DNA from: Somniosus microcephalus
Lineage: Eukaryota
Reading direction: 5' to 3'
NCBI GenBank assembly: GCA_052327205.1
Contig: CM126211.1
Coordinates: 234,918,001 to 234,982,000, forward strand
DNA length: 64,000 bases
A program made the position numbers and the translations under genes. This document shows, piece by piece, positions 1,085-63,298 of this stretch; within the stretch, counting starts at the first letter, position 1; every line of letters starts with the position of its first letter. The notes beneath the pieces are model-generated. The model ran no database searches. It had not been told where the DNA came from and was given only the letters and a program-made list of their open reading frames with translations.

Positions 1085-1957
1085 AAAGAAAGACTTGCAT
1101 TTATATAGCGTCTTTCACAACCACCGGACGTCCCAAAGTACTTTACAGCCAATGAAGTACTATTTTAAGTGTAGTCACTGTTGTAATGTGGGAAATGCAG
1201 CAGCCAATTTGCGCACAGCAAGCTCCCACGAACAGCAATGTGATAATGACCGGATAATCTGTTTGTTTATTATGTTGGTTGAGGGGATAAATATTGGCCA
1301 GGACACCGGGGATAACTTCCCTGCTCTTCCAAGAAATAGTGCCGTGGGATCTTTTACGTCCACCTGAGAGAGCAGACGGGGCCTCGGTTTAACGTCTCAT
1401 CTAAAAGACGACACCGCGGCGCTCCCTCGGCACTGCCCCTCCGACAGTGCGGCGCTGCCCCTCCGACAGTGCGGCGCTCCCTCGGCGCTGCCCCTCCGAC
1501 AGTGCGGCGCTCCCTCGGCGCTGCCCCTCCGACAGTGCGGCGCTCCCTCGGCGCTGCCCCTCCGACAGTGCGGCGCTCCCTCGGCGCTGCCCCTCCGACA
1601 GTGCGGCGCTCCCTCGGCGCTGCCCCTCCGACAGTGCGGCGCTCCCTCGGCGCTGCCCCTCCGACAGTGCGGCGCTCCCTCGGCGCTGCCCCTCCGACAG
1701 TGCGGCGCTCCCTCGGCGCTGCCCCTCCGACAGTGCGGCGCTCCCTCGGCGCTGCCCCTCCGACAGTGCGGCGCTCCCTCGGCGCTGCCCCTCCGACCGT
1801 GCGGCGCTCCCTCGGCGCTGCCCCTCCGACCGTGCGGCGCTCCCTCGGCGCTGCCCCTCCGACCGTGCGGCGCTCCCTCGGCGCTGCACTGGAGTGTCAG
1901 CCTAGCTTTATGTGCTCAAGTCCCTGGAGTGGGACTTGAACCCACAACCTTCTGACT
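1085..1957 (-). mobile_element. DeuSINE (SacSINE1-like) with internal 33-bp tandem expansion (about 14 units, 1414-1889)
   Basis: L2-like tail at left, Deu-domain motif (GATGAGACGTTAAACCGAGG...AAAAGATCCC on - strand), B-box GGTTCAAGTCC at right. Confidence 0.85.
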
Positions 1958-2557
1958 TATTACACTGACTACTACGGTTCTGATTACTTATTGAACACCT
2001 GAGAAGTACAAAACGTTTTGCAAGCAATGAGCTCCCTGGCTTTTTTATTGACTCTTGGATCTCGTGAATCTCAAAGCAGAAGTACCTTGGCACACCTCTC
2101 AAACAGTGTTACTTTGCTGTATTGTGTGGGGAATGTCCCATAAACAGCGACGAGATGAGTGACAAGTTAATCTGATTTGGTGGTTTTGGTTGAGGGAGCA
2201 ATGTTGGTTGGGAGACTGGGAGCACCCTTCCAATAGTGCCGTGGGATCCTGGAACCACTGGAGCAGGCGTGGCATTGGAAGGCCAGTGTCTTCAACGTTC
2301 TTCCAGTGCTGTACTCTCGGCTGAGTTTGTGTGCCCAGCCGCAAGCTTTCGAATCCGAGGGAAGCCCGCTCAGAGCTGAGCTGATGCCGTGGCTATCTTT
2401 GGATTTAATTTATTTTAAAAGTAATGGCAGACACAAACTCCTCCCTTATTTCACACGGTTTGAGTTCTTGTAGGTAGTTGGTTGAGGTTTCCAGGTCATC
2501 GTGTGTAGCGAGGCTGGGACTGTTTGGAGTCTAGCCTGTGGAGAAAGTGCAGATGTT

Positions 2558-2983
2558 GATTGAGTCGACTAGGCCTATATTCCCTCGTGTTTAGAAGAAT
2601 GAGCGGTGATCTCATTGAAACATAAGATTCTGTTGACAGGGTAGATGCTGAGAGGCTGTTTCCCCCTGGCTGGAGAGTCTAGAACCAGGGGTCACAGTCT
2701 CAGGATAAGGGGTCGGCCATTTAGGACTGAGATGAGGAGGAATTTCTTCACTCAGAGGGCGGTGAATCTTTGGAATTCTCTCCCCCAGAGGGCTGTGGAG
2801 GCTCAGTCGTTGAGTATATTCAAGACCGAGATCGATAGATTTTTGGACTCTAGGGGAATCGAGGGATATGGAGATCGGGCGGGAAAGTGGAGTTGAGGTC
2901 GATGATCAACCATGATCTTATTGAATGGCGGAGCAGGCTCGAGGGGCCGAATGGCCGACTCCTGCTCCTAATTCTTATGTTCT
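2558..2983 (+). mobile_element. CR1 3' fragment
   Basis: FPLAGESRTRGHSLRIRGRPFRTEMRRNFFTQR ORF2 C-terminus plus 3' UTR ending TTCTTATGTTCT. Confidence 0.88.
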
Positions 2984-3463
2984 CACATAATTGTGACTTA
3001 ATTCAGTCGAACGAAAATTAACCTTTTTCTTAGAGTTCATCTGCAGCAGAGTTGTCTTTAATGCTTTATTTCTTTCTGGTTTTATTTGTATGGCTTCCCC
3101 TTTTTGAGGGTTTGTTTGAGTGGAGAGAGCAATTGTGGCTGGGCACCACTTTCAGGTGCGCCTGAAGGAAGGGCGTGGAACCAAACCTGGCAAAACTTGG
3201 CAAAATTATGAGATTGCAGGAAATTGTGCCAGTCTGTCAGGCTTTAGATGGAAAAAGGAAGAATCTTATTGGCGAGCAGCAAAATCCAGGTCAGGTCTTG
3301 TGGCTCGGGGTGAACACCAGCAACTATGCGACCCAGCTGCAGGATCTGGTTATCCCGGCCGGTGCTTTTGGTACATAGACAGATAATTCATGGTTTTGCA
3401 GACTTTGCCAATCAGCAGGAATTCCCCTGATGTCACCTCTCCAAGCAGCATGGCTGCACCCAT

Positions 3464-3986
3464 GTTCATTCTCGGGATGTGGGCATCGCTGGCCACGCAA
3501 GCGCCAGGAAATGACTATCTCCAACAAGCGAGAGTCTAACTACCACCCCTTGACATTCAACGGGATTACCATCGCTGAATCCCCCACCATCAACATCCTG
3601 GGGGGGGTCACCATTGATCAGAAACTGAACTGGACCAGCCATATAAATACTGTGGCTACAAGAGCAGGTCAGAGGCTGGGAATTCTGCGGCGAGTGTCTC
3701 ACCTCCTGACTCCCCAAAGGCTTTCCACCATCTACAAGGCACAAGTCAGGAGTGTGATGGAATACTCTCCACTTGCCTGGATGAGTGCAGCTCCAACAAC
3801 ACTCAAGAAGCTCGACACCATCCAGGACCAAGCAGCCCGCTTGATTGACACCCCATCCACCACCTTAAACATTCACTCCCTCCACCACCGGCGCACCGTG
3901 GCTGCAGTGTGTACCATCTACAAGATGCACTGCAGCAGCTCGCCAAGGCTTCTTTGGCAGCACCTCCCAAACCCGCGACCTCTACT
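3464..3986. mobile_element. Fragment of a second CR1/L2-group LINE family with an inverted 3' tail
   Basis: + strand RT C-terminus (MTISNKRESN...VMEYSPLAW) homologous to the - strand copy at 41577-42191; 3464-3497 is that family's 3' tail in the opposite orientation. Confidence 0.75.
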
Positions 3987-5250: not shown

Positions 5251-5254
5251 TGGT

Positions 5255-6914: not shown

Positions 6915-7367
<453 letters not shown>

Positions 7368-7371
7368 TAAG

Positions 7372-8579: not shown

Positions 8580-8580
8580 C

Positions 8581-9920
8581 AGGGATGGTGGGGGTGTGGA
8601 CCTTGTTTTGGGGGGGGGGGGGGGATGGTGGGGGTGTGGACCTTGTTTTGGGGGGGGGGGATGGTGGGGGTGTGGACCCTGTTTCGGGGGGGGGGGGAAT
8701 GGGGGGGGTGTGGACCCTGTTTTTGGGGGGGAGATAGTGGGGGTGTGGACCCTGTTTTGGGGGGGGGGATGGTGGGGATGTGGACCCTGTTTTGGGGGGG
8801 GGGGTGGTGGGGATGTGGACCCTGTTTTGGGGGGGGGGATGGGGGGGTGTGCACCCTGTTTTGGGGGGGGGGATGGGGGGGTGTGCACCCTGTTTTTGGG
8901 GGGGGGATGGTGTGGATGTGGACCCTGTTTTTGGGGGGGGGGGGGTGGTGGGGATGTGGACCCTGTTTTGGATGGTGTGGATGTGGACCCTGTTTTTTTT
9001 TGGGGGGGGGGAGGATGGGGGGGCTGTGGACACTGTTTTGATGGGGGGGGATGTGGACCCTGTTTTTGGGTGGGGGGGTGTGGACCCTGTGATGGGATGG
9101 GGGGGGTGGACCCTGTTTTGGGGNNNNNNNNNNNNNNNNNNNNNNNNNNNNNNNNNNNNNNNNNNNNNNNNNNNNNNNNNNNNNNNNNNNNNNNNNNNNN
9201 NNNNNNNNNNNNNNNNNNNNNNNNNNNNNNNNNNNNNNNNNNNNNNNNNNNNNNNNGGGGGGGTGTGGACCCTGTTTTTGGGGGGGTGGATGGGGGGGGG
9301 TGTGGACCCTGATTTGGGGGGCGGTGGTGGGGATGTGGACCCTGTTTTGGGGGGGGGGGGGTGGTGGGGATGTGGACCCTGTTTTTGGGGGGGGGGTGGT
9401 GGGGGTGTGGACCCTGTTTTGGTGGGGGGGGGGTGTGGACACTGTTTTTGCGGGGGGGGGTGGTGGTGGGGGGTGTGGACCTTGTTTCAGGTGGTGGGGG
9501 TGTGGACCCTGTTTTGGGGGGGGAGGTGGGGGTGTGGACCCTGTTTTTGGGGGGGGGTGGACCCTGTTTTTTGGGGGGGGGTGGGGATGTGGACCCTGTT
9601 TTTGGGGGGGGGGGTGGACCCTGTTTTGGGGGGGGGTGGGGGTGTGGACCCTGTTGTGGGGGGTGGGGGTGTGGACTCTGTTTTGGGGGGGGGGGTGGGT
9701 GGGGGTGTGGACCCTGTTTTGGGGGGTGGGTGGGGGGGTGGACCCTGTTTTTTGGGGGGGGGAGGTGGGGGTGTGGACCCTGTTTTTGGGGGGGGGGTGG
9801 ACCCTGTTTTTGGGGGTGGGTGGGGGTGTGGACCCTGTTTTGGGGGGGGGTGGGTGGGGGTGTGGACCCTGTTTTGGGGGGGTGGGGGGTGGTGGACCTT
9901 GTTTGGCAGTGGGGGTGGGG
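8581..9920. repeat. G-rich degenerate minisatellite (core GTGGACCCTGTTTT between G-runs), interrupted by a gap
   Basis: About 30-37 bp period with variable G-run length, seen directly. Confidence 0.92.
9124..9256. other. Assembly gap (133 N)
   Basis: Run of n. Confidence 0.99.
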
Positions 9921-11990: not shown

Positions 11991-12039
11991 CGAAAACCAG
12001 GTCCATCTGCATCTTCAAAGAGAAAATAGCAGAACAGCT

Positions 12040-12357
12040 GCGCTCAGTTGGTAACGCTCCCGTCTGTAGGTTGGAAGGCCGTGGGTTCAGGCCCTGTTCC
12101 AGTGACTTGAGCACAAAATCCAGGCTGACATTTGTGCAGTACTGAGGGAGCGCCGCACTGTCGGAGGGGCAGTACTGAGGGAGCGCCGCACTGTCGGAGG
12201 GGCAGTACTGAGGGAGTGCCGCACTGTCGGAGAGGCAGTACTGAGGGAGTGCCGCACTGTCGGAGAGGCAGTACTGAGGGAGCGCCGCACTGTCGGAGAG
12301 GCAGTACTGAGGGAGTGCTGCACTGTCGGAGGGGCAGTACTGAGGGAGCGCCGCACT
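12040..12357 (+). mobile_element. DeuSINE head plus 33-bp array running into the gap
   Basis: A/B-box-like head followed by at least 6 units. Confidence 0.82.
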
Positions 12358-12857: not shown

Positions 12858-13055
12858 AGGGGGGGCGGGGGAGAGAAGGGAAGGGGGGGCGGGGGAGAGA
12901 AGGGAAGGGGGGGCGGGGGAGAGAAGGGAAGGGGGGCGGGGGAGAGAAGGGAAGGGGGGCGGGGGAGAGGGGAAGGGGGCGGGGGAGAAGGGAAGGGGGA
13001 CGGGGGAGAGAAGGGAGGGGGGTGCGGGGGGAGAGAAGGGAAGGGGGGGCGGGGG
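12858..13055. repeat. Purine-rich repeat of about 23-24 bp (GGGGGGCGGGGGAGAGAAGGGAA)
   Basis: Seen directly. Confidence 0.85.
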
Positions 13056-13518
13056 TGTGAGACAGGATGGGGGGAGAGAAGGGTTTTGAGCACAGTTTTG
13101 AGAATGCTCAAAGCCCATGTTTTGTAACTTTCGTTTTGCCTTATCGCATCCCTCAAAGTGCCTCACAAACATTGATTACTTTGAAGTGCGGAGACCGTCA
13201 TGTAGTGAAACGTTTCAGCAATTTTGCAAGGCTCCATAAATAGCAGTGAGTAGCCAGTTAATCCGTTGATGATTTGAGGAAGGAATGTTGGCCGAGAGAA
13301 CTCCCTGAGCCACCAGAACAAACAGATAGGACCTTGATTTAAAGTCTTGAATGAATGTAGGCACCTCTGACAATGTTGCACCCCTACAATGGGGTAGCAG
13401 CCAGATTAGTGCAGGAATGGAAGCTCGCCTCCCAGAACTTGATTCCCATTGTAGAGAGGGGAGTGGGCTTCCCCGGTGCTTTGTCCTGATTTGGGAATAG
13501 AAGCTTCACTCCCAAGTG

Positions 13519-14540
13519 TGTCAACTGTGGTTCAGTGGGCAGCACTCTCGCCCCTGAGTCAGTAGGTCGTGGGTTCAAGTCCCACTCCAGAGACTTGAGC
13601 CCATAATCCAGGCTGATGCTCCCAGTGCAGTACTGTAGGGGCGGTACTGAGGGAGCGCCGCACTGTCGGAGGGGCAGTACTGAGGGAGCGCCGCACTGTC
13701 GGAGGGGCTGTACTGAGGGAGCGCCGCACTGTCGGAGGGGCTGTACTGAGGGAGCGCCGCACTGTCGGAGGGGCAGTACTGAGGGAGCGCCGCACTGTCG
13801 GAGGGGCAGTACTGAGGGAGCGCCGCACTGTCGGAGGGGCAGTACTGAGGGAGCGCCGCACTGTCGGAGGGGCTGTACTGAGGGAGCGCCGCACTGTCGG
13901 AGGGGCTGTACTGAGGGAGCGCCGCACTGTCGGAGGGGCAGTACTGAGGGAGCGCCGCACTGTCGGAGGGGCAGTACTGAGGGAGCGCCGCACTGTCGGA
14001 GGGGCAGTACTGAGGGAGCGCCGCACTGTTGGAGGGGCAGTACTGAGGGAGCGCTGCACTGTCGGAGGGGCAGTACTGAGGGAGCGCTGCACTGTCGGAG
14101 GGGCAGTACTGAGGGAGCGCCGCACTGTCGGAGGGGCAGTACTGAGGGAGCGCTGCACTGTCGGAGGGGCAGTACTGAGGGAGCGCCGCACTGTCGGAGG
14201 GGCAGTACTGAGGGAGCGCCGCACTGTCGGAGGGGCAGTACTGAGGGAGCGCCGCACTGTCGGAGGGGCAGTACTGAGGGAGCGCCGCACTGTCGGAGGG
14301 GCAGTACTGAGGGAGCGCCGCACTGTCGGAGGGGCAGTACTGAGGGAGCGCCGCACTGTCGGGCAGTGCTGAGGGAGTGCTGCACTGTCAGAGGTGCCAT
14401 CTTCCGGATGAGATGTTAAACCGAGGCCTCGTCTGCCCCCTCGGGTAGATGCAAAAGATCCCATGGCTTTATTCTGGTGAAGAGCAAGGGGAGTTTTGGG
14501 GCCAATATTTATCCCTCAAACAACATCACTAAAAACAGAA
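13519..14540 (+). mobile_element. DeuSINE with 33-bp array (about 23 units, 13624-14392)
   Basis: TGGTTCAGTGG A-box, GGTTCAAGTCC B-box, array, then Deu domain GGTGCCATCTTCCGGATGAGATGTTAAACCGAGG. Confidence 0.88.
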
Positions 14541-15394: not shown

Positions 15395-16700
15395 CACTCT
15401 GCTGCCCGTGTCCTAACTCGCACCAAGTCCCGTTCGCCCATCACCCCTACATTGGCTCCCAGTCCGGCAACGCCTCAATTTCAAGGCCCTCCATGGCCTC
15501 ACCCCCTCCCTATATGGAACGGTGGCATAGTGGCTATGTTACTGGACTAGTAATCATAACATAACATAAGAAGTAGGAGCAGGAGTAGGCCATACGGCTC
15601 CTCGGGCCTGCTCCGCCATTCAATAGGATCATGGCTGATCTGAATCTAGACTCACGTCCACTTCCCTGCCCTCTCCCCGTAACCCCTAATTCCCTTATCT
15701 GCTAGGAAACTGTCTATCTCGGTTTTAAATTTATTTAATGTTGCAGCTTCCACAGCTCTCTGGGGTAGCAAATTCCATAGATTTACTACCCTCTGAGTGA
15801 AGAAGTTTCTCCTCATCTCAGTTTTGAAAGGGCAGCCCCTTATTCTTAGATTATGCCCCCTAGTTCTAGTCTCACCCATCAGTGGAAACATCCTCCCCGC
15901 ATCCACCCGATCAAGCCCCCTCACAATCTTACATGTTTCGATAAGATCGCCTCTCATTCTTCTGAACTCCAATGAGTAAAGTCCCAACCTACTCAACCTT
16001 TCCTCATACGTCAACCCCCTCATCTCCGGAATCAACCGAGTGAACCTTCTCTGAACCGCCTCGAGAGCAAGTATATCTTTTCTTAAATATGGAAACCAAA
16101 ACTGCACGCAGTATTCCTGGACTAATGATCCAGAGACGCGAGTTCAAATCCCACCACGGCAGCTGGGGAATTTAAATTCAGTTAATTAAATAAATCCGGA
16201 ATAAAAAGCTGGTAATGGTGACCATGGAAATTGTCGTAAAAACCCATCTGGTTCACTAATGTCCTTATGGGAAGGAAATCTGCCGCCCTTACCCGGTCTG
16301 GCCTACGTGTGACTCCAGACCCACAGCAATGTGTTTGACTCTTACCTGCTCCCCGAAATGGCCCAGCGAGTCACTCAGTTGTACTAAACCGCTACGACAG
16401 TCACTGTGGGAGCACCACACGGACTGCAGCGGTTCAAGAAGGTAGCTCGCCACCACCTTCTCGAGGATAATTAGGGATGGGTAATAAATGCCGGCTTCGC
16501 CAACGACGCTCACATCCCGTGAATGAATAAACATCTCTGTAACCTCCTCCAGCCCTGCAGCACTCCGAGATCTCTGCGCTCCAATTTAGGCCTCGTCAGC
16601 ATCCCCGATTTTCATCGTCCACCATTGGTGGCCGTGCCTTCGGCTGTCTGGGCCTTCAGCTCTGGAATTCCCTCCCTAAACCTCTCCGCCTCTACCTCTT
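15395..16700 (+). mobile_element. L2 3' fragment (15395-15511 and 16533-16700) interrupted by a tRNA-derived SINE (15521-16531)
   Basis: SAARVLTRTKSRSPITP; L2 resumes at ATCTCTGTAACCTCCTCCAG; SINE has GGTGGCATAGTGG and GAGTTCAAATCCC boxes and a tail ending CACATCCCGTGAATGAATAAA. Confidence 0.78.
15556..16117 (-). mobile_element. CR1 3' fragment inserted in the SINE head (same subfamily as 47442-50172)
   Basis: QFWFPYLRKDILALEAVQRRFTRLIPEMRGLTYEER; host CTGGACTA.T.ATC repeated on both sides. Confidence 0.88.
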
Positions 16701-16707
16701 AGGGCTT

Positions 16708-16890: not shown

Positions 16891-19629
16891 CAGTGAGCAC
16901 AGGGGGTGATGGGTGAACGGGACTGGGTGTGAGTTAGGACACGGGGCAGTGAGCACGGGGGTGAGGGGTGAACGGGACTGGGTGTGAGTTAGGACACGGG
17001 GCAGTGAGTACAGGGGGTGATGGGTGAACGGGACTGGGTGCGAGTTAGGACACGGGGCAGTGAGCACGGGGGGTGATGGGTGAACGGGACTGGGTGTGAG
17101 TTAGGACATGGGGCAGTGAGCACAGGGGGTGATGGGTGAATGGGACTGGGTGCGAGTTAGGAGACGGGGCAGTGAGCACGGGGGGTGATGGGTGAATGGG
17201 ATTGGGTGTGAGTTAGGACACGGGGCAGTGAGCACAGGGGGTGATGGGTGAACGGGACTGGGTGCGAGTTAGGACACGGGGCAGTGAGCACAGCGGGTGA
17301 TGGGTGAACGGGACTGGGTGTGAGTTAGGACACAGGGTGATGGGTGAACGGGACTGGGTGTGAGTTAGGACACGGGGCAGTGAGCACGGGGTGATGGGTG
17401 ACCGGGACTGAGTGCGAGTTAGGACACGGGGCAGTGAGCACGGGGTGATGGGTGAACGGGACTGGGTGCGAGTTAGGACACGGGGCAGTGAGCACGGGGT
17501 GATGGGTGAACGGGACTGGGTGTGAGTCAGGACACGGGGCAGTGAGCACGGGGTGATGGGTGAACGGGACTGGGTGTGAGTTAGGACACGGGGCAGTGAG
17601 CACGGGGCGATGGGTGAACGGGACTGGGTGTGAGTTAGGACACGGGGCAGTGAGCACGGGGTGATGGGTGAACGGGACTGGGTGTGAGTTAGGACACGGG
17701 ACAGTGAGCACAGGGGGTGATGGGTGAACGGGACTGGGTGTGAGTTAGGACACGGGGCAGTGAGCACGGGGTGATGGGTGAACGGGACTGAGTGTGAGTT
17801 AGGACACGGGGCAGTGAGCACGGGGTGATGGGTGAACGGGACTGGGTGTGAGTTAGGACACGGGGCAGTGAGCACAGGGGGTGATGGGTGAACGGGACTG
17901 GGTGTGAGTTAGGACACGGGGCAGTGAGCACGGGGTGATGGGTGAATGGGACTGGGTGTGAGTTAGGACACGGGGCAGTGAGCACAGGGGGTGATGGGTG
18001 AACGGGACTGGGTGTGAGTTAGGACATGGCAGTGAGCACAGGGGGTGATGGGTGAACGGGACTGGGTGAGAGTTAGGACACGGGGCAGTGAGCACAGGGG
18101 GTGATGGGTGAACGGGACTGGGTGTGAGTTAGGACACGGGGCAGTGAGCACAGGGGGTGATGGGTGAACGGGACTGGGTGTGAGTTAGGACACGGGACAG
18201 TGAGCACAGGGGGTGATGGGTGAACGGGACTGGGTGAGAGTTAGGACACGGGGCAGTGAGCACGGGGTGATGGGTGAATGGGACTGGGTCTGAGTTAGGA
18301 CACGGGGCAGTGAGCACAGGGGGTGATGGGTGAACGGGACTGGGTGTGAGTTAGGACACTGGGCAGTGAGCACAGGGGGTGATGGGTGAACGGGACTGGG
18401 TGTGAGTTAGGACACGGGGCAGTGAGCACAGCGGGTGATGGGTGAATGGGATTGGGTTGTGAGGACATGGGGCAGTGAGCACGGGGTGATGGGTGAACGG
18501 GACTGGGTCTGAGTTAGGACACGGGGCAGTGAGCACAGGGGGTGATGGGTGAACGGGACTGGGTGTGAGTTAGGACACTGGGCAGTGAGCACGGGGTGAT
18601 GGGTGAACGGGACTGGGTGTGAGTTAGGACACGGGGCAGTGAGCACAGGGGGTGATGGGTGAACGGGACTGGGTGTGAGTTAGGAGACGGGGCAGTGTGT
18701 ACAGGGGGTGATGGGTGAACGGGACTGGGTGTGAGTTAGGACACGGGGCAGTGAGCACAGGGGGTGATGGGTGAACGGGACTGGGTGTGAGTTAGGACAC
18801 GGGACAGTGAGCACAGGGGGTGATGGGTGAACGGGACTGGGTGAGAGTTAGGACACGGGGCAGTGAGCACGGGGTGATGGGTGAACGGGACTGGGTCTGA
18901 GTTAGGACACGGGGCAGTGAGCACAGGGGGTGATGGGTGAACGGGACTGAGTGTGAGTTAGGACACTGGGCAGTGAGCACAGGGGGTGATGGGTGAACGG
19001 GACTGGGTGTGAGTTAGGACACGGGGCAGTGAGCACAGCGGGTGATGGGTGAATGGGATTGGGTTGTGAGGACATGGGGCAGTGAGCACGGGGTGATGGG
19101 TGAACGGGACTGGGTCTGAGTTAGGACACGGGGCAGTGAGCACAGGGGGTGATGGGTGAACGGGACTGGGTGTGAGTTAGGACACTGGGCAGTGAGCACG
19201 GGGTGATGGGTGAACGGGACTGGGTGTGAGTTAGGAGACGGGGCAGTGAGTACAGGGGGTGATGGGTGAACGGGACTGGGTGTGAGTTAGGACACGGGGC
19301 AGTGAGCACTGGGTGATGGGTGAACGGGACTGGGTGTGAGTTAGGACACGGGGCAGTGAGCACGGGGTGATGGGTGAACGGGACTGGGTGTGAGTTAGGA
19401 CACGGGGCAGTGAGCGCAGGGGGTGATGGGTGAACGGGACTGGGTGTGAGTTAGGACACGGGGCAGTGAGCACGGGGTGATGGGTGAACGGGACTGGGTG
19501 TGAGTTAGGACACGGGGCAGTGAGCACAGGGGGTGATGGGTGAACGGGACTGGGTGTGATTAAGGACACGGGGCAGTGAGCACAGGGGGTGATGGGTGAA
19601 CGGGACTGGGTGTGAGTTAGGACACGGGG
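16890..19629. repeat. 55/56-bp minisatellite, about 49 copies, derived from L2 ORF2
   Basis: Unit GGGGCAGTGAGCAC(AG)GGGGTGATGGGTGAACGGGACTGGGTGTGAGTTAGGACAC matches the reverse complement of 51836-51895. Confidence 0.95.
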
Positions 19630-28217: not shown

Positions 28218-28470
28218 GTGCACTAACTGCAAACCAAGCTGAGGTCAGACTGACTCTCAGACTGGGAATCGATTTTGAGCCTGCTGGCAAGTCTGATTTA
28301 CTGTTAGGTGAGATGGGGCCTTTTGCCAGTACACCGTGGGGGGAGGAAGAATTTGGAGAAATTTCAGTTCCATTTTTGACCACGTATTCATCCCAGCTCA
28401 TTTCAAACGCGTTGCATTAACTGCTTTCACTGAGAGCCTGTTGCATGTCCTTTCTACTGGTGGCTACTCT

Positions 28471-29930: not shown

Positions 29931-30111
29931 CCATTTACTCTGTGAGGGGGAGGTCAGCCACTCACCAGACTCGGTATAGGGGATACTTAGTATTCATAGT
30001 GAGGTGGCACGTGGGTGCTGTAGCAAGGCATTAAGCTGACGCAAATATCCCGGGCATCGATTGTCTGTCGCCCCGTTTATCGTTAACGTCCCCGGTTTTT
30101 CTTTCTCCTAG

Positions 30112-30285
<174 letters not shown>

Positions 30286-31867: not shown

Positions 31868-32461
<594 letters not shown>

Positions 32462-32896: not shown

Positions 32897-33910
32897 CGGT
32901 CAGCTTGGCTCCGTGGGTAACACTCTTGCATTCTTTTGCGTCAGAAGGTTGTGGGTTCACGTCCCACTCCAGAGACATAATCCGGGCCGACACTCCAGTG
33001 CAGTACTGAGGGAGCGCTGCACTGTCGGAGGGGCAGTACTGAGGGAGCGCCGCACTGTCGGAGGGGCAGTACTGAGGGAGCACCGCACTGTCGGAGGGGC
33101 AGTACTGAGGGAGCGCCGCACTGTCGGAGGGGCAGTACTGAGGGAGCGCCGCACTGTCGGAGGGGCAGTACTGAGGGAGCGCCGCACTGTCGGAGGGGCA
33201 GTACTGAGGGAGCGCCGCACTGTCGGAGGGGCAGTACTGAGGGAGCGCCGCACTGTCGGAGGGGCAGTACTGAGGGAGCGCCGCACTGTCGGAGGGGCAG
33301 TACTGAGGGAGCGCCGCACTGTCGGAGGGGCAGTACTGAGGGAGCGCCGCACTGTCGGAGGGGCAGTACTGAGGGAACGCTGCACTGTCGGAGGGGCAGT
33401 ACTGAGGGAGCGCCGCACTGTCGGAGGGGCAGTACTGAGGGAGCGCCGCACTGTCGGGCAGTGCTGAGGGAGCGCCGCACTGTCGGAGGGGCAGTACTGA
33501 GGGAGCGCCGCACTGTCGGAGGGGCAGTACTGAGGGAGCACTGCACTGTCGGAGGGGCTGTACTGAGGGAGGGCCGCACTGTCGGAGGGGCAGTACTGAG
33601 GGAGCGCTGCACTGTCGGAGAGGCAGTACTGAGGGAGTGCCGCACTGTCGAAGGGGCAGTACCGAGGGAGTGCTGCACTGTTGGAGGGGCAGTACTGAGG
33701 GAACGCTGCACTGTTGGAGGGGCAGTACTGAGGGAGCGCCGTACTGTTGGAGGGGCAGTACTGAGGGAGCGCTGCACTGTTGGATTGGCAGTACTGAGGG
33801 AGCGGCGCACTGTCGAAGGGGCAGTACTGAGGGAGTGCCGCACTGTCGGAGGGTCAGTACTGAGGGAGCGCCGCATTTAATGTCATTATTGGAAGAGCAG
33901 GGGAGTTCTG
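32897..33910 (+). mobile_element. DeuSINE with 33-bp array (about 26 units); Deu domain mostly deleted
   Basis: Head TGGCTCCGTGG / GGTTCACGTCC; the array ends close to TATTGGAAGAGCAGGGGAGTTCT. Confidence 0.85.
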
Positions 33911-33918
33911 CCTGTGCT

Positions 33919-43002: not shown

Positions 43003-43369
43003 TTCTTACAGGACTTGACAGGATAGATGAAGAGAGGATGTTTCCCCTGGCTGGGGAGTCTAGAACCAGGGGTCACAGTCTCAGAATAAGGGGTCGGCCA
43101 TTTAGGACTGAGATGAGGAATTTCTTCACTCAGAGGGTGGTGAATCTTTGGAATTCTCTACCCCAGAGGGCTGTGGAGGCTCAGTCGTTGAGTATATTCA
43201 AGGCTGAGATCGATAGATTTTTGAATATTAAGGGAATCAAGGGATATGGGGATAGTGCAGGAAAGTGGAGATGAGTTAGAAGATCAGCCATGATCTTATT
43301 GAATGGCGGAGCAGGCTCGAGGGGCCAAATGGCCGAATCCTGCTCCTATTTCTTATGTTCTTATGAGGA

Positions 43370-44272
43370 GATCATCTGTAGTTTGAGGGATAAATGTTGG
43401 CCCTGAATTCCCCTGCTCTTCGAATAGTGGCTTTGGGATCTTTTACATCCGAGAGGGCAGACGGGGCCTCAGTTCAACATGTCATCCAAAAGCTGGCACC
43501 TCCGACAGTGCAGCACTCCCTCAATACTGCTCCTCCGACAGTGCAGCACTCCCTCAGTACTGCTCCTCCGACTGTGCAGCGCTGCCTCAGTACTGCCCCT
43601 CCGACAGTGCGGCGCTCCCTCAGTACTGCCCCTCCGACAGTGCCGCGCTGCCTCAGTACTGCCCCTCCGACAGTGCGGCGCTCCCTCAGTACTGCCCCTC
43701 CGACAGTGCCGCGCTCCCTCAGTGCTGCCCCTCCGACAGTGCAGCGCTCCCTCAGTACTGCCCCTCCGACAGTGCGGCACTCCCTCAGTACTGTCCCTCC
43801 GACAGTGCAGCGCTTCCTCAGTACTGCCCCTCCGACAGTGCCGCGCTCCCTCAGTACTGCCCCTCCGACAGTGCAGCGCTCCCTCAGTACTGCCCCTCCG
43901 ACAGTGCGGCGCTGCCTCAGTACTGCCCCTCCGACAGTGCGGCGCTCCCTCAGTACTGCCCCTCCGACAGTGCGGCGCTGCCTCAGTACTGCCCCTCCGA
44001 CAGTGCGGTGCTCCCTCAGTACTGTCCCTCCGACAGTGCAGCGCTTCCTCAGTACTGCCCCTCCGACAGTGCGGCGCTCCCTCAGTACTGCCCCTCCGAC
44101 AGTGCAGCGCTGCCTCAGTACTGCCCCTCCGACAGTGCGGCGCTGCCTCAGTACTGCCCCTCCGACAGTGCGGCGCTCCCTCAGTACTGCACTGGGAGTG
44201 TCAGCCTGGATTATGGGCTACAGTCTCTGGCGTAGAACCCATGATCTTCTGACTCTCTTGAGAGAGTGCTAC
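43370..44272 (-). mobile_element. DeuSINE with 33-bp array (about 21 units, 43499-44193)
   Basis: Deu domain at left, array, tRNA-like head at right. Confidence 0.85.
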
Positions 44273-44704
44273 CTATCTTAAGTCTGCCTTGAGGGAGGGG
44301 GGATTTGCTGGGACGTTATCACTGACAGGTGCTGAGTTTTGGAGTCCGGGAGATCTAGAAGCCAGCTCTTGGGGGAGACGGGGATGGAGACTGCACGGGC
44401 GGCTCAGTGCTGCGATTCTTCGTGGGATGTCTGATACTAAGTGAGTGCCTTTCTGGGGCTGATGGTGGGGATCCTGCGGTGACGGCAGGACTTTCAAACA
44501 GTAAGTGTGAGATTCCCTCGACAGCAAATCCCAGTTATTGGTTGAAGGGGGAGGTTTTATTAGCACTGGATGGAGGTGTACACACACGTGTGTGTGTGCC
44601 TGAACCTGCGGCAGTTAAAGGCCCCGTTGCCCAGCCTCCTCACCAGCAGGATCTGTGTGAAAGAGTCCCGTGTCATTGCTGCTTCATCTCCCTGCTGCAA
44701 CCGA

Positions 44705-45270: not shown

Positions 45271-45684
45271 GACGCACTTGCTGTTTACTTGTCCCGGAGC
45301 ACAGATCACGCAATCCGTCGGTCTTTGTTTGCATCTCCTTTGTTTTCATTTAAATGCATACCTATCTGGAACTTTCTGAAGTAATGTGGGGGAGTTGCTA
45401 TCTGATTTTTAGCACAATTTGATTTTATTACTTGCTTGGCAGTGATGTGGGTGGCGGCTAGTTGACAGAGTAAATTAATAGCAGTTCCCCGCACGCACGA
45501 ACGAGAGCACCCGCGGGGAATCACAAGCACAGAATGCAGGAGTTCCTCTCACTGCTTTTAATAAATGTGGTTCATTGTGGGCCCTCGATCTCACAATACT
45601 GTGCCAAACAGATAGAATAGGTCATGACTTACACAGGCTGGTTTAGTGAATTACTCGAGTGCTAACTCAAAAAAGACTTTAAGG

Positions 45685-46370
45685 ACTTGCATTTCTATCG
45701 CGCCTTTCACCACTACAGCCAATGAAGCGCTTTGTGAAGTGTGGTCACTGTTGTAATGTAGGAAACACGGCGGCCAAATCGCGCACAGCAAGATCCCACA
45801 AACAGCAATGTGATAATGACCAGATACTCTCTTAATTAGTGATCTCGGTTGAGGGATAAATATTGGCCAGGACACCGGGCAGAACTCCTTCAGTACTGCC
45901 CCTCCGACAGTGCGGCGCTCCCTCAGTACTGCCCCTCCGACAGTGCGGCGCTCCCTCAGTACTGCCCCTCCGACAGTGCGGCGCTCCCTCAGTACTGCCC
46001 CTCCGACAGTGCGGCGCTCCCTCAGTACTGCCCCTCCGACAGTGCGGCGCTCCCTCAGTACTGCCCCTCCGACAGTGCGGCGCTCCCTCAGTGCTGCCCC
46101 TCCGACAGTGCGGCGCTCCCTCAGTACTGCCCCTCTGACAGTGCGGCGCTCCCTCAGTACTGCCCCTCCGACAGTGCGGCGCTCCCTCAGTACTGCCCCT
46201 CTGACAGTGCGGCGCCCCCTCAGTACTGCCCCTCCGACAGTGCGGCGCTCCCTCAGTACTGCACTGGGTGTGTCGGCCTGCGTTATCTGTTCAAGTCTCT
46301 GCGAGTGGGACTTGAATCCACGACCTTCTGACTCCGAGGCGAGAGTGCTGCCCACTGAGCCACGCTTGAC
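45685..46370 (-). mobile_element. DeuSINE with 33-bp array (about 11 units); part of Deu domain deleted
   Basis: Tail, then GGCAGAACTCC fused directly to the array, then head CCCACTGAGCCAC. Confidence 0.85.
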
Positions 46371-46430: not shown

Positions 46431-47425
46431 TCTGGATCTCTGTCTCTCAATCGCTCTCTCTCTTTCGCTGGATCTGGATCACTCTCGCTGAGTCTCTCTC
46501 GTTCTCTCTCTCTGGATCGTTCTCTCTCTCTCTCTCTGGATCGTTCTCTCTCTCTCGCTGGGTCGTTCTCTCTCTCTGGATCGTTCTCTCTCGCTGGATC
46601 GTTCTCTCTCTCGCTGGATCGTTCTCTCTCTCTCTGGATCGTTCTCTCTCTGGACCGTTCTCTCTGGATCGTTCTCTCTCTCTCTCTCTCTCTCTGGATC
46701 GTTCTCTCTCTGGATCGTTCTCTCTCTCTCTGGATCGTTCTCTCTCTCTCTGGATCGTTCTCTCTCTCTCTGGATCGTTCTCTCTCTCTCTGGATCGTTC
46801 TCTCTCTCTCTGGATCGTTCTCTCTCTCTCTCTCTGGATCGTTCTCTCTCTCTCTCTGGATCGTTCTCTCTCTCTCTGGATCGTTCTCTCTCTGGATCGT
46901 TCTCTCTCTCTCTGGATCGTTCTCTCTCTCTGGATCGTTCTCTCTCTCTCTGGATCGTTCTCTCTCTGGATCGTTCTCTCTCTGGATCATTCTCTCTCTC
47001 TCTCTCTCTCTCTGGATCATTCTCTCTGGATCGTTCTCTCTCTGGATCATTCTCTTTCTCTCTGGATCGTTCTCTCTCTCTGGATCGTTCTCTCTCTCTC
47101 TCTGGATCGTTCTCTCTCTCTCTCTCTCGATCGTTCTCTCTCTCTCTGGATCGTTTTCTCTCTTGCTGGATTTCGTTCTCTCTCTGGATCGTTCGCTCTC
47201 TCTCTCTCTCTCTCTGGATCGTTCTCTCTCTCTGGATCGTTCTCTCTCTCTCTCTCGATCGTTTTCTCTCGCTGGATTTCGTTCTCTCTCTCCCTGGATC
47301 GTTCTCTCTGGATCTCTCTCTCTCTGGATCTCTCTCTCTCTGGATCGTTCTCTCTCTCTCTGGATCTCTCTCTCTCTGGATCGTTCTCTCTCTCTCTGGA
47401 TCGTTCTCTCTCTCTCTCGCTGGAT
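46431..47425. repeat. Compound (TC)n-GGATCGT microsatellite; resumes at 50171-50242 after the CR1
   Basis: TC runs punctuated by TGGATCGT, seen directly. Confidence 0.95.
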
Positions 47426-47441
47426 TTCCTTCTTGACAATT

Positions 47442-50172: not shown

Positions 50173-50459
50173 CTCTCTCTGGATAGTTCTCTCTCTCACT
50201 GGATGTCGTTCTCTCTCGCTCGATCGATCTCTCTCTCTTCTCTAAATTGTGTATAAAGCGCCTTTAATGTAGAAATAGTTCCCAAGGCTTCAGAGAGGCA
50301 TTGGACAGAAAGTGGATGCCAAACCAAAGGAGAATATATAAAGATATAAATCAAGAGTCGATAGACACATCAGACTGGGGTTTAAAGATTGCAGCTTAGT
50401 CGGTGTGGAGTCCCACAGTTGATATCTTGGAAGAGGAGCGGTTAGACCCAGTAAACCAG

Positions 50460-51469: not shown

Positions 51470-52317
51470 CGGATGTGGTTTAATATTGGGAAGACCAAAG
51501 CCATTGACTTCGGTCCCCACCACAAGCTTCACTCCCTCGCCACCAACTCCAGCCCCCTCTCTGGCATCTGTCTGAGGCTGAACCACACTGTTCGCAACCT
51601 TGGTGTCATATTTCACCCCGACATGAGCTTCCGACCACATAACCGCGCCATCACTAAGACCGTCTGTTTCCACCGCCGGAGCATCGCCCGACTCCGCCTC
51701 TGCCTCTGCCTCAGCTCATCTGCTGCTGAAACCCTCATCCATGCCTTTGTTACCTCTAGACTTGACTATTCCAACACACTCCTGGCTGGCCTCCCACATT
51801 CTGCCCTCCGTAAACTTGAGGTCATCCAAAACTCGGCTGCCCGTGTCCTAACTCACACCGAGTCCCATTCGCCCATCACCCCCTGTGGTCGCTGACCTAC
51901 ATTAGCGCCCAGTTAAGCAGCGCCTCGATTTCAAAATTCACATCCTTATTTTCAAATCCCTCCATGGCTTCGCCCCTCCCTATCTCTGCAACCTCCTCCA
52001 GCCCCACAACCCTCCAAGATCTCTGCGCTCCTCCAATTCTGGCCTTTTGCTCATCTTGGATATTAATCACTCCATCATTGGCGGCCGTGCCTTCATCTGT
52101 CTGGGCCCTAAGCTCTGGAATTCCCTCCCTAAACCTCTCCGCCTCTCTCTCCTCCTTTAAGATGCTCCTTAAAACCGACCTCTTTGACCAAGCTTTTGGT
52201 CACCTGTCCTAATATCTCCTTATGTGGCTCGGTGTCAAATTTTGTTTGATAATCGCTCCTGTGAGCACCTTGGGACGTTTTACTACGTTAAAGGCGCTAT
52301 ATAAATGCTAGTTGTTG
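51470..52317 (+). mobile_element. L2 LINE 3' portion (unexpanded parent of the 55/56-bp unit)
   Basis: VRNLGVIF, AETLIHAFVTSRLDYSN, IQNSAARVLT; tail AAAGGCGCTATATAAATGCTAGTTGTTGT. Confidence 0.9.
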
Positions 52318-53084
52318 TGGTTGGTTTATGCTACACCCTCGGTACTTTCCCCCCCCCCCCCCCCCCTGCTGCAATCATGCTTTTTGTTTCTTTTCCATTT
52401 TCGAGAAGTTGATGATTTTTTTGTTGCCAGTTTTTTTGGGAACTGTCCGTTCAGTCTGTCGGTCTGGGAATGAACTGATGAGCGGTTTTGAGTTTAACTT
52501 GCGCCCTCCCGAGATTTCCTGAGTGACGATGTGAGCACAAGATTCTTGACTGTTGAGAGCTGATCACGGCGTATGGCTGGTTGTCAGATCCTCGCAGACC
52601 CAATCCGCTCCCTGGCAACAGCCTCGGCTCTGTGCTTTTATTAGTTTGCGTGATGTGGGTGACATTTGCAAGGCCGCATTAATTGCCCACCTTCAATTGC
52701 CCCAAGGACCTTAAGAATGGTCCACATAGTGTGGGACTGGAGTCAAGTGGTCCAGACAGGTAAGGATGGCAGGTTGTCTTCCTGAAGGACATTGGTGAAC
52801 CAGTTGGGATTTTACAACAATCGTGGTCGTTCTCAAATTACCAAAATTATTGAATCCAATTTCACAACTTGCACTGGTGGGATTTGATCTCCCGACCTCT
52901 AGGCCTAGCACTGGAACCACTGCTCTACTGTATCCTGGATCCCACGGCAGAATTCGAAGAGCAGGGGCGTTCTCCCCGGTGTCCCTCCTGGCCAATGTTC
53001 ACCCCTCAACCACTAAAAAACAGATGATCTGGTCATTATCACATTGCTGTCCGTGGGATCTTGCTGTGCTCAAACTGGCTGGGA

Positions 53085-53783
53085 CGTCCTGGGATCTTTT
53101 CCTTCCACCTGAGAGAGCAGACGGGGCCTCGGTTTAACATCTCAACTGAAAGACGGCACCTCCGACAGTGCGGCACTCCCTCAGTACTGCCCCTCCGCAC
53201 AGTGCAGCACTCCCTCAGTACTTCCCCTCCAACAGTGCGACGCTCCCTCAGTACTGCCCCTCCGACAGTGCGGCGCTCCCTCAGTACTGCCCCTCCGACA
53301 GTGCGGCGCTCCCTCAGTACTGCCCCTCCGACAGTGCGGCGCTCCCTCAGTACGGCCCCTCCGACAGTGCGGCGCTCCCTCAGTACGGCCCCTCCGACAG
53401 TGCGGCGCTCCCTCAGTACGGCCCCTCCGACAGTGCGGCGCTCCCTCAGTACGGCCCCTCCGACAGTGCGGCGCTCCCTCAGTACGGCCCCTCCGACAGT
53501 GCGGCGCTCCCTCAGTACGGCCCCTCCGACAGTGCGGCGCTCCCTCAGTACGGCCCCTCCGACAGTGCGGCGCTCCCTCAGTACGGCCCCTCCGACAGTG
53601 CGGCGCTCCCTCAGTACGGCCCCTCCGACAGTGCGGCGCTCCCTCAGTACGGCCCCTCCGACAGTGCGGCGCTCCCTCAGTACGGCCCCTCCGACAGTGC
53701 GGCGCTCCCTCAGTACGGCCCCTCCGACAGTGCGGCGCTCCCTCAGTACTGCCCCTCCGACAGTGCGGCACTCCCTCAGTACT
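53085..53783 (-). mobile_element. DeuSINE fragment with 33-bp array (about 19 units, 53159-53783), head missing
   Basis: Deu domain CCTCGGTTTAACATCTCA...GACGGCACC followed by the array. Confidence 0.85.
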
Positions 53784-53929
53784 CTGTTCAGAATGAATTG
53801 GGTGTTGTATGCCAGCAAGTCCGTTATCTTTTAAATGCCCCTGTGTGAGGACACAGAGCCTATTGAGTGACTGTATATTTCTGCTCTTTGCCTGGCTTTG
53901 GAAATGTTGGCTAGGAGTACTCTGTATGG

Positions 53930-54464
53930 ATTTGGTCTCCTTACCTAAGGAAGGATATACTTGCCATAGAGGGAGTGCAACGAAGGTTCACCAGACTGGT
54001 TCCTGGGATGGGGGGATTGTCCTATGAGGAGAGATTGAGTAGACTAGGCCTATATTCTCTAGAGTTTAGAAGAATGAGAGGTGATCTCATTGAAACATAC
54101 AAAATTCTTACAGGGCTTGACAGGGTAGATGCAGGGAGGATGTTTCTCCTGGCTGGGGAGTCTAGAACCAGGGGTCTCAGAATAAGGGGTCGGCCATTTA
54201 GGACTGAGATGAGGAGAAATTTCTTCACTCAGAGGGTGGTGAATCTTTGGAATTCTCTGCCCCAGAGGGCTGTGGATGCCGAGTCGTTGAGTATATTCAA
54301 GACAGAGAGCGATAGATTTTTGGACTCTAGGGGAATCAAGGGATATGGGGATAGTGCGGGAAAGTGGAGATGAGGTAGAAGATCAGCCATGATCTTATTG
54401 AATGGCGGAGCAGGCTCGAGGGGCCGCATGGCCGACTCCTGCTCCTATTTCTTATGTTCTTATG
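53930..54464 (+). mobile_element. CR1 3' fragment
   Basis: QRRFTRLVPGMGGLSYEERL...; tail TTCTTATGTTCTTATG. Confidence 0.9.
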
Positions 54465-54530
54465 AAAATCACCAGCTGGATTTGGATTTGGCACCTTGGG
54501 TTGGTATTCACCCCCGGAGAATATCAGTCC

Positions 54531-54744
54531 TGATGTAAACAGACTACTGATCGCTTGGTTTGAGTATAAAACAAGGCTTTAAGCAACTGTTTCACAACCA
54601 GGAGATTCTAGTTACATCACTAGTTCCTGGTTACAGAAACATCCTGAGCAAGCTGGGCCCACGCCCGAGTATTTATACTCCTTGGACGGTGCCACCAGCT
54701 GGCCGCCCAGTGTTACTTCATGAGTGATGATAAGATTCATGACA
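54531..54744 (-). mobile_element. Solo LTR (214 bp) with 5-bp TSD AGTCC
   Basis: TG...CA termini; AGTCC at 54526-54530 and 54745-54749; TATAAATA on the - strand; homologous to 63798-64000. Confidence 0.8.
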
Positions 54745-55383
54745 AGTCCCATTGTTTTTCCATTAAAGCACCTGGTCCCTACCCTCAACTACCCTTCCTG
54801 GGTAGCCTGTTGCAGCAGTCAAACACACTCTGAAGAAATACTTCCTGGCGTCTCTGAAATCTGTCCAAAGCAACAGGACCGTTGAACTGTAGAGGCTTAT
54901 AAACTCTTAGGGTTCTTCCAACATGATAGCGCTGCTCGCCTGGTGTTGGCAAGCTGTGGACGTGGTTTGGCTCTTGAAGGCGGACTACCCGTCTGTTTCT
55001 GCCAGAGATTGTATCTGTGTGTCATTTATCGTGGAATCGCCGTGCTGACCGCTTTCCCCGCCCTTTGTACAGCAATTTCATTGAAAGGAAGTGTCATTTG
55101 GCTAAAGTCCGTATTATTTTTATGTAAATAGAACGACCCAGGCAGCAGTTTCAGTTGAAATCAAACGCCACGAGTAAGCTGATTGTTAAAGCAGAGCAGA
55201 AAACGAGCACTTTCCTGCAGAACTTTCCCCTTATTGCCACATTGCCACAACACTCGATCGTGGCCTGGGATGTTGACATAGTGCCATATAACATCAGCAT
55301 CTCAAACCCGCTTCGCTTAAATTGCTTTGATCGTAGGCAAACACGGCGTGATCCTGTGACACTAAGCGGCAGTGAGAATTAAA

Positions 55384-55998
55384 GTGAGGGCGGTTCCTCA
55401 ATCACTACTCGGCCTGTGAGAGTGTGTGACTCCCTGCCCGGTGTGAGGGTGTTCCTCAATCACTACTCGGTCTGTGAGAGTGTGTGACTCCCTGCTCGGA
55501 GTGAGGGCGGTTCCTCAATCACTACTCGGTCTGTGAGAGTGTGTGACTCCCTGCCCGGTGTGAGGGTGTTCCTCAATCACTACTAGGTCTGTGAGAGTGT
55601 GTGACTCCCTGCTCGGAGTGAGGGCGGTTCCTCAATCACTACTCACCCTGTGAGAGTGTGTGACTCCCTGCCCGGTGTGAGGGTGTTCCTCAATCACTAC
55701 TCGGTCTGTGAGAGTGTGAGACTCCCCGCTCAGTGTGAGGGTGTTCCTCAATCACCACTCGGTCTGTGAGAGTGTGTGACTCCCTGCCCGGTGTGAGGGC
55801 GGTTCCTCAATCACTACTCGGTCTGTGAGAGTGTGTGACTCCCTGCCCGGGGGAGGGCGGTTCCTCAATCACTACTCACCCTGTGAGAGAGTGTGACTCC
55901 CCGCTCAGTGTGAGGGAGGTTCCTCAATCACTACTCAGTGTGTGACTCCCTGCCTGGGGTGAGGGCGGTTCTTCAATCACTGCTCACCCTGTGAGAGT
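55384..55998. repeat. 58/59-bp minisatellite, about 10 copies
   Basis: Unit GTGAGGGCGGTTCCTCAATCACTACTCGGTCTGTGAGAGTGTGTGACTCCCTGCCCGGT. Confidence 0.93.

Positions 55999-63136: not shown

Positions 63137-63298
<162 letters not shown>

What the first reader, a model, noticed from the sequence alone, without database searches (positions are those of the whole stretch)
1414..55998. Unrelated minisatellites converge on a GGGGCAGT / GGGCAG motif that their parent sequences lack
Seen: duplicating the SINE segment through its GTGC microhomology would give the junction GGAGGTGCAGT (array ends read ..GAGGTGCC; starts read CCAGTGCAGT), yet the arrays read GGAGGGGCAG (followed by T in seven arrays, C in the 1414 array). 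The single-copy L2 reads ACACGGGCAGC (- strand of about 51836-51846 and about 15401-15411), yet the L2-derived array reads ACACGGGGCAGT with an extra G. The unrelated repeat at 32172-32428 also carries ACTGCCCC, most units of the 58/59-mer carry CCTGCCC (GGGCAGG), and the 44-mer has the looser GGGGTACAGT. Established: the human minisatellite core GGGCAGGARG and the mouse unstable repeats Ms6-hm (GGGCA)n and Hm-2 (GGCA)n share this motif and arose within retroelements. Inference: a motif-dependent process (sequence-specific recombination or binding factor such as a PRDM9-like protein, or G4/hairpin stalling) picks which TE segments amplify here. Caveat: short G-rich words recur by chance in GC-rich repeats, and the 40-mer lacks the motif.
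Basis: partly seen in the sequence, partly recalled or inferred. Interest (0 to 1): 0.78.

Follow-up and report, generated by a model that had tools for sequence, protein, structure and literature searches.

The report
Shark SINE-derived 33-bp minisatellite family
Eight tandem repeats in the introns of a probable shark STIM1 gene are copies of one 33-base repeat family that grew out of an old mobile element and stayed nearly identical while the surrounding copies decayed; the short G-rich word it shares with a few unrelated repeats is only borderline above chance.

Summary
The SINE junction change is real: 0 of 138 parsed internal junctions read GGTGCAG and 137 have G at that site. The same junction is the consensus in 4 of 4 public runs, two of them from diverged genomes. 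It is most likely one founder event, not eight. The modal unit is identical in 6 of 8 arrays, while host SINE heads are only 71-89% identical.

Cross-family convergence is not established. The L2 parents already hold GGGCAG. Five of 9 families lack it. The 53153 array expanded as GGGGCCGT (12 of 17 junctions). Corrected for choosing the word afterwards, P = 0.06-0.75; with GGGCAG fixed in advance, P = 0.003-0.017.

Best reading: a duplication at a SINE hairpin flanked by GTGC, seeded into many copies, expanded in place and homogenised by GC-biased conversion. This is a new member of a known kind (snake SINE-derived satellites, mouse B1-derived VNTRs). I found no paper on it in sharks, and no earlier scan note on this repeat.

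The parts
1087..1958 (-). SINE copy with a 33-bp array at 1414-1890 (13 units). The variant unit has CAGCGCC for CAGTACT, and a 22-bp deletion unit is present; short deletion at the tail junction
12036..12357 (+). SINE head plus 33-bp array 12136-12357, cut by a 500-N gap
13519..14538 (+). SINE with array 13622-14397 (about 23 units); holds the 29-bp double-variant unit; parent-like last unit
28470..29934 (+). Full-length SINE (about 470 bp with the array collapsed) with array 28575-29610 (31 units); its tail end was used for laying public runs
32900..33913 (+). SINE with array 32995-33876 (about 27 units); holds the same 29-bp double-variant unit; tail junction deleted
43361..44275 (-). SINE with array 43495-44195 (21 units); the last two units are parent-like (TGCTGC), with GGAGCAGT junctions
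45682..46369 (-). SINE with array 45885-46266 (11-12 units); tail junction deleted
52937..53802 (-). SINE remnant with array 53153-53785 (19 units, modal junction GGGGCCGT); head lost, tail piece 52937-53083 inverted
2132..2360 (-). Degenerate array-free SINE copy spanning the segment; hairpin partly deleted
13146..13411 (-). Degenerate array-free SINE copy spanning the segment; hairpin partly deleted
16891..19629 (+). 54/56-bp array (about 50 units) grown from the L2-like copy at 16705-16945. Two added Gs give four G3 runs per unit, a canonical G4 pattern absent from both single copies
15396..15515 (+). Single-copy L2-like piece with the parent segment (already GGGCAG on the - strand)
51522..52290 (+). 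Single-copy L2-like piece with the parent segment at 51836-51890 (already GGGCAG on the - strand)
32172..32428 (-). 32/42/74-bp composite repeat with GGGGCAGT 4 times; no parent found
55384..55999 (+). 58/59-bp repeat; CCTGCCC in 5 of 10 units; no parent found
20268..23134 (+). 44-bp array (69 copies), no GGGCAG; shares the palindrome CAGTACTG with the SINE unit
24279..28217 (+). 40-bp array (100 copies), no GGGCAG
8582..9894 (+). G-rich 35-bp array around a 133-N gap, no GGGCAG
12858..13083 (+). G-rich 24-bp array, no GGGCAG
46503..47417 (+). (TC)n-containing 20-bp array, no GGGCAG
30112..30226 (+). Host gene exon, STIM1 EF-SAM region (E = 4e-17 to PDB 2k60). Further STIM-like exons at about 6992-7121, 32051-32161 and 63146-63260 (family recalled for these three)

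Best explanation
One dispersed, SINE-derived minisatellite family with a single founder unit. (1) Birth (inferred): the 33-bp SINE segment is a 12-bp hairpin with a 5-nt loop between two GTGC direct repeats, so slippage or unequal exchange duplicates exactly this register. (2) Founder change (sequence shown, single origin inferred): the junction T became G and one or two T became C. This weakens the hairpin and lengthens a G-run. (3) Seeding (inferred): the short duplication reached many SINE copies, either carried by an active SINE master or copied in later by ectopic conversion. (4) Expansion and upkeep (inferred): in this GC-rich, repeat-prone region units multiply in place. Conversion within and between arrays, biased towards G/C, keeps them alike while single-copy flanks decay. 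The other arrays are separate products of the same unstable region. What several share is G-rich strand asymmetry; GGGGCAGT in three of them is mostly a by-product of G-run gain and chance.
For: Modal unit identical in 6 of 8 arrays; the other two differ at 1 and 3 sites. SINE heads are 71-89% identical over 21 pairs. P(6 or more of 8 unchanged) is 1e-4 to 3e-10 at 6-12% divergence from the ancestor. The same junction is the loose-end consensus in 4 of 4 runs (955, 1725, 592 and 747 contigs), including two runs whose contigs differ from the intron at 14 of 305 and 28 of 408 sites. The segment is the most stable 33-nt window sampled along the SINE, -11.1 against a median of -2.0 kcal/mol. In tandem context the three changes raise it from -8.9 to -4.1. 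Parent-like T alleles sit in the last unit of 3 of 4 arrays that keep the tail. An identical 29-bp unit (deletion plus substitution) occurs in arrays 13637 and 33000. A/T-to-G/C variants pass 50% of an array in 4 of 12 cases against 0 of 34 for G/C-to-A/T. Four of 9 units fall in the top 2.3% of GC-matched windows for G-strand asymmetry. Precedent: snake sSat3 units average 89% similarity against 64% for their SINEs (PMC10702118).
Against: The four A/T-to-G/C majorities are only two sweeps (p = 0.048 counted as 2 of 10). Single-base variants are not shared between arrays more than chance (4 of 26 non-CpG; 4.6-5.9 expected), so inter-locus exchange rests on one 29-bp unit. 40 of 99 possible substitutions weaken the hairpin by 2 kcal/mol or more, so 3 of 3 is not significant. 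The two C alleles are CpG sites, so the parent-like T could be CpG decay. Array-bearing copies match the run-wide majority letter at 45 of 54 scored site-copies, which shows no subfamily mark (the test covers only 16 sites). GGGCAG fixed in advance is still in excess (P 0.003-0.017). No recombination or conversion rate was measured. No intact array-free parent lies in the window.
Confidence: 0.6

Rival explanations
1. One reading: a factor or structure specific for GGGGCAG(T) selects which segments amplify, so unrelated repeats converge on the word.
For: GGGCAG in 4 of 9 families, P 0.003-0.017 if fixed in advance; the 8-mer in 3 of 9 gives look-elsewhere P = 0.064 on the real-sequence null. 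Both TE-derived arrays changed at this word. Mouse (GGCAGA)n came from B1 SINEs (tables in PMC9659126 and PMC6947457).
Against: Look-elsewhere P is 0.32 and 0.75 on shuffles and 0.18 for 6-mers on real sequence. The L2 parent has GGGCAG. The 53153 array swept to GGGGCCGT. Five of 9 families lack the word. GGGCAG elsewhere in the SINE is not amplified. Conservation across diverged genomes is unlike PRDM9 targets, and the elephant shark ortholog is described as putatively partial with no rapid zinc-finger evolution (PMC5519329, passages; status in this species untested).
Confidence: 0.15
2. Homing-like invasion: existing arrays convert intact single-copy SINEs into array-bearing ones through the shared flanks, so the unit spreads as a selfish sequence without retrotransposition. 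This is the strong form of step 3.
For: 8 of 10 SINE copies that span the segment carry an array, and the two without are degenerate there. Flanks look like independently decayed main-family copies. Deletions or an inversion lie at the edge of 4 of 8 arrays. The 29-bp unit is shared by two arrays.
Against: A master SINE with one altered and one parent-like unit predicts the same polarity. G/C-biased conversion alone would protect the 23 G/C sites of 33. No orthologous locus with and without an array was seen: no listed contig bridges the SINE.
Confidence: 0.2
3. Assembly artefact: polishing or gap filling copied one consensus unit into all arrays.
For: N gaps sit in or beside two G-rich arrays. 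Only contigs, no raw or long reads, could be laid.
Against: Arrays carry private, ordered variants (1414, 43499, 53153). Tandem go-back joints and the G junction occur in 4 of 4 independent runs from 3 studies. Copy numbers may still be wrong.
Confidence: 0.05

Closest known systems
Snake SINE-derived satellite sSat3 (Vassetzky et al. 2023, PMC10702118; read parts 1-4 of 5)
   Same: Tandem unit from an internal SINE segment, many dispersed loci, uniform across related species, units far more alike than host SINEs (89% vs 64%).
   Different: Unit 33 bp vs 67 bp. Most copies here keep both SINE ends, which is uncommon in squamates. A diagnostic junction substitution and a parent hairpin were not described in what I read. 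Here the arrays are intronic; chromosome position is unknown.
Mouse (GGCAGA)n VNTR family from B1 SINEs (Bois et al. 1998); Ms6-hm and Hm-2 from MaLR LTRs (Kelly 1994). Seen only as table rows and references in PMC9659126 and PMC6947457; other details recalled
   Same: Expansion from within a retroelement at many loci; GGCAG-containing G-rich strand.
   Different: Units of 4-6 bp already present in the parent; here a 33-bp unit with a base change at the junction.
Alu-derived minisatellites; Haber-Louis origin through short flanking repeats (passages in PMC6947457)
   Same: First duplication through a short direct repeat flanking the unit.
   Different: The microhomology here is 4 bp around a hairpin, and the junction does not match the simple product.
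Avian dot-chromosome 'sequence stuttering' (Hron et al. 2026, PMC12954441; passages)
   Same: Introns filled with several unrelated, locally expanded GC-rich repeats (29% of this window); G4 and GC-biased conversion are discussed as causes.
   Different: Bird stutters are strictly local and those regions lack interspersed repeats. Here TEs are abundant and one unit recurs at eight loci. Length polymorphism is untested.
SacSINE1 / DeuSINE (463 bp, tRNA-derived, L2-related; passage in PMC2746220)
   Same: Length about 470 bp with the array collapsed; resemblance recalled.
   Different: No sequence comparison with the published consensus was possible.

Membership tests
SINE-derived dispersed satellite (sSat type) | Unit is a sub-segment of a SINE and is flanked by SINE sequence | tested here: met
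   8 of 8 arrays
SINE-derived dispersed satellite (sSat type) | Many loci, at least four units each | tested here: met
   8 loci of 6-31 units in 64 kb. Summed contig depth on the unit is 3.5-8.9 times that on three SINE-tail bins in 4 of 4 runs (not a copy number)
SINE-derived dispersed satellite (sSat type) | Units more alike between loci than their host SINEs | tested here: met
   Between-array unit distance 7% vs 11-29% for heads
SINE-derived dispersed satellite (sSat type) | Subtelomeric preference | not testable with these tools
   No genome held for this window
SacSINE1 / DeuSINE | Deu central domain and tRNA-derived head matching the published consensus | not testable with these tools
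   No TE library. Rfam found no tRNA match in the head (two chance hits). Only the length agrees
Human/mouse GGGCAG-core minisatellites | Unit carries the core GGGCAGG (core recalled, as in the finding) | tested here: not met
   GGGCAGG in 1 of 9 family consensuses (58-mer, 5 of 10 units), P = 0.14
Human/mouse GGGCAG-core minisatellites | GGGCAG enriched over background across independent families | tested here: inconclusive
   P 0.003-0.017 fixed in advance; 0.06-0.75 with look-elsewhere correction
PRDM9-target repeat | Motif erodes and differs between related species | tested here: not met
   Junction gained and shared by 4 of 4 runs, two from diverged genomes
PRDM9-target repeat | Match to the species' zinc-finger motif; H3K4me3/DMC1 peaks | not testable with these tools
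   No genome, no ChIP data
Sequence stuttering | High tandem-repeat cover of introns | tested here: met
   18350 of 63367 non-N bases
Sequence stuttering | Strictly local origin of each repeat | tested here: not met
   The 33-mer recurs at eight loci; the other eight families occur at one locus each in this window
Sequence stuttering | Large length variation between individuals | not testable with these tools
   Only contigs were available

The most novel reading that the evidence does not exclude
The 33-mer is a selfish, homing-like minisatellite. Its gained G-run junction is a cis signal for breakage and GC-biased repair, so arrays overwrite intact SINE copies across shark genomes. The same GGGCAG-type signal favours unrelated repeats, which would make the human and mouse minisatellite core an ancient, PRDM9-independent vertebrate instability signal. 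Millions of SINE copies with and without the junction would then test it directly.
Probability: 0.13. Interest if true: 0.8.

Novelty: new member of a known kind. Interest (0 to 1): 0.42.

Why it matters
The family is a large natural experiment on how minisatellites are born and kept uniform. It has a known parent, a base-level founder change, very many loci and several species. It can separate retrotransposon seeding, ectopic conversion and GC-biased conversion, and it can test whether a GGGCAG core does anything. It also suggests that shark introns show repeat loads like the avian 'stuttering' that PMC12954441 did not find in other vertebrates apart from gerbils. In practice such arrays give long open frames that can mislead gene prediction.

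Tried and rejected
- The whole-window motif count was rejected as a test, because it counts copies.
- No genome is held, so there was no genome-wide family count.
- A metagenome scan for the junction pattern gave 0 matches.
- Translated-array searches for other species' junctions gave nothing usable. One search found none. Searches gave 10 and 5 weak, unnamed hits. One search listed 150, and only 3 of the 166 stored proteins passed the repeat filter. These were not used. My recollection that other sharks carry a GGGTCAGT junction is therefore untested.
- Excess sharing of single-base variants between arrays was not found.
- A SINE subfamily mark on array-bearing copies was not found.
- Hairpin weakening as selection was not significant.
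- Rfam on the SINE head gave chance hits only.
- The first PDB search used the wrong frame and was repeated.
- The tables are truncated (129, 1149 and 2470 rows hidden), so rare T-junction arrays are not excluded.
- Literature: 10 searches and term look-ups in PMC10620051, PMC10468316, PMC2746220, PMC13100897 and PMC11979771 showed no description of this shark repeat. Subscription papers, Dfam/Repbase and supplements were not seen.
- PMC8892340 (one passage) did not settle shark PRDM9 status.
- Scan look-ups (by sequence; by place; by words) gave nothing relevant.
Full report
Setting. The window is vertebrate intronic DNA. The exon at 30112-30226 matches STIM1, and three more STIM-like exons translate openly. 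That the animal is a shark is my inference from recalled SINE, CR1 and L2 sequences and from the SINE's length (about 470 bp collapsed; SacSINE1 is 463 bp, PMC2746220 passage). No call names the organism. Tandem repeats cover 18350 of 63367 non-N bases and fall into nine larger families.

The SINE observation. Eight arrays of a 33-bp unit sit at the same place in one SINE family. The four surviving tails read GGAGGTGCC and the seven surviving heads end in GTGCAG, so both parent copies of the GTGC microhomology have T, and a plain duplication would keep it. Of 138 parsed internal junctions none reads GGTGCAG and 137 have G there. This is not local or an assembly quirk. I laid 4 of the 20 runs listed on 29545-30300. 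Contigs leaving the last unit continue GGCAGTACT as their consensus in all four (955, 1725, 592 and 747 contigs; agreement 0.68-0.77). Two runs match the unique intron without a difference over 409 bases. The other two differ at 14 of 305 and 28 of 408 sites plus gaps, so they come from diverged genomes. Summed depth on the unit is 3.5-8.9 times the mean of three tail bins, which the tool warns is not a copy number. The tables are truncated, so rare T-junction arrays are not excluded.

One family, not eight origins. The modal unit is identical in 6 of 8 arrays and differs at 1 and 3 sites in the other two. Host heads are 71-89% identical over 21 pairs. Independent neutral history would give this with P of 1e-4 to 3e-10. 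The eight arrays therefore count once in any test of convergence, and their uniformity is the feature that needs explaining.

The convergence claim. Both single-copy L2 pieces already read GGGCAG, and the T after it comes from the head of the duplicated segment, so the array adds one G there (40 of 48 scored units). It also adds a G at a second site (50 of 50 units), which completes four G3 runs. The 58/59-mer has CCTGCCC in 5 of 10 units. Five of nine families lack GGGCAG. The 53153 array swept to GGGGCCGT (12 of 17) and the 1414 array to GGGGCAGC. GGGCAG words in the SINE head and tail lie outside every array. No parent was found for seven families. With look-elsewhere correction, the best shared 8-mer has P = 0.32 (shuffles, which used the 74-bp unit for the 32172 repeat) or 0.064 (real GC-matched segments, which used the 32-bp unit). 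The best 6-mer has P = 0.75 or 0.18. Fixed in advance as the known core, GGGCAG has P = 0.003, or 0.017 without the L2; GGGCA has 0.035, GGCAG 0.06 and GGGCAGG 0.14. So a small excess is possible and unproven. A broader trait is clearer: 4 of 9 units lie in the top 2.3% of GC-matched windows for G-strand asymmetry, although one of those had only 30 background windows and the SINE unit itself is unremarkable.

Anatomy and mechanism. The parent segment, rebuilt from real array ends, folds into a 12-bp stem with a GAGGG loop (-11.1 kcal/mol, the best 33-nt window sampled along the SINE; median -2.0) between two GTGC repeats. That explains why this register duplicated (inferred; short-repeat model as summarised in PMC6947457). 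The array unit differs from it by T>G, T>C and T>C. Each change weakens the stem, but so do 40 of 99 possible substitutions, and the two C sites are CpGs whose direction is uncertain. The run-wide loose-end consensus has only the first of the two C alleles. Later sweeps also run from A/T to G/C: 4 of 12 such variants exceed half an array against 0 of 34 in the reverse direction, but these are two events (p = 0.048). Parent-like units sit at the tail end in 3 of 4 arrays that keep it. One 29-bp double-variant unit occurs in two arrays 19 kb apart, while single-base variants are shared no more than chance. Four of eight arrays have a deletion or inversion at an edge. Eight of ten SINE copies spanning the segment carry an array, and the two that do not are degenerate there. 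I read this as a founder duplication, seeded into many copies, expanded in place and held uniform by G/C-biased conversion (0.6). Whether seeding was by retrotransposition or by ectopic conversion is open; one search found no subfamily mark at 16 sites. Higher GC and more simple repeats on small shark chromosomes, with biased conversion as a suggested cause, are reported in PMC10620051 (passages). The chromosome of this window is unknown.

Rivals. A GGGCAG-specific factor gets 0.15. It is kept alive by the a-priori excess and the mouse B1 precedent, and weakened by arrays that expand without the word. PRDM9 fits badly, since its targets erode and turn over between close species (PMC5519329, passages) while this junction is gained and conserved. 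Homing-like invasion gets 0.2 and an assembly artefact 0.05.

Comparison and novelty. It works like snake sSat3 and meets three of its four features, with subtelomeric position untestable (PMC10702118, parts 1-4 of 5 read). It also recalls mouse B1-derived VNTRs (seen only in review tables). The window resembles avian sequence stuttering in repeat load but not in strict locality (PMC12954441, passages; bioRxiv 10.1101/2025.10.17.683159, passages). Ten searches found no account of this repeat in sharks, within a library that lacks most subscription papers and all TE databases; supplements were not read. Two earlier scan notes describe other intronic minisatellites in shark genes (unchecked), and none describes this unit.

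Verdict. The convergence headline is not established. The real feature is a conserved, homogenised SINE-derived 33-bp minisatellite family, a new member of a known kind. Interest 0.42.

Noticed in passing
window 35904-40636 (+) and about 56078-61589 (-): Two Gypsy-like LTR elements (class recalled), each with a near-identical LTR pair; the second sits just after the 58/59-bp array. Described only.
   Followed up: no
window 1-64000: Tandem repeats cover 29% of non-N bases, with nine unrelated families in the introns of one gene, resembling avian 'sequence stuttering'.
   Followed up: partly
window 16531-16945: The L2 copy hosting the 56-mer abuts an oppositely oriented L2 piece over the same element region, forming an imperfect inverted repeat. 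The array's far end jumps to another part of the L2.
   Followed up: partly
window 52937-53802: The SINE has lost its head and has part of its tail inverted next to the array.
   Followed up: partly
window 32161-32430: The 32/42/74-bp repeat starts about 11 bases after a STIM1 splice donor, and its units carry donor-like CAG|GTAC words.
   Followed up: no
window 1414-1478: A 22-bp deletion unit shows how the CAGCGCC variant could arise by one out-of-register template switch within the unit.
   Followed up: partly
window 20268-23134: The 44-mer shares the palindrome CAGTACTG with the SINE unit; short variants that lack part of it accumulate towards the right end.
   Followed up: no
window 45886-46262: The SINE array gives stop-free 11-residue-repeat frames, a likely source of false predicted proteins.
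   Followed up: partly
window 46503-50238: A long CR1-like copy (class recalled) lies between two pieces of the same (TC)n-type 20-bp repeat.
   Followed up: no
window 9124-9256 and 12358-12857: Both assembly gaps lie in or beside G-rich arrays, so array lengths there are uncertain.
   Followed up: no
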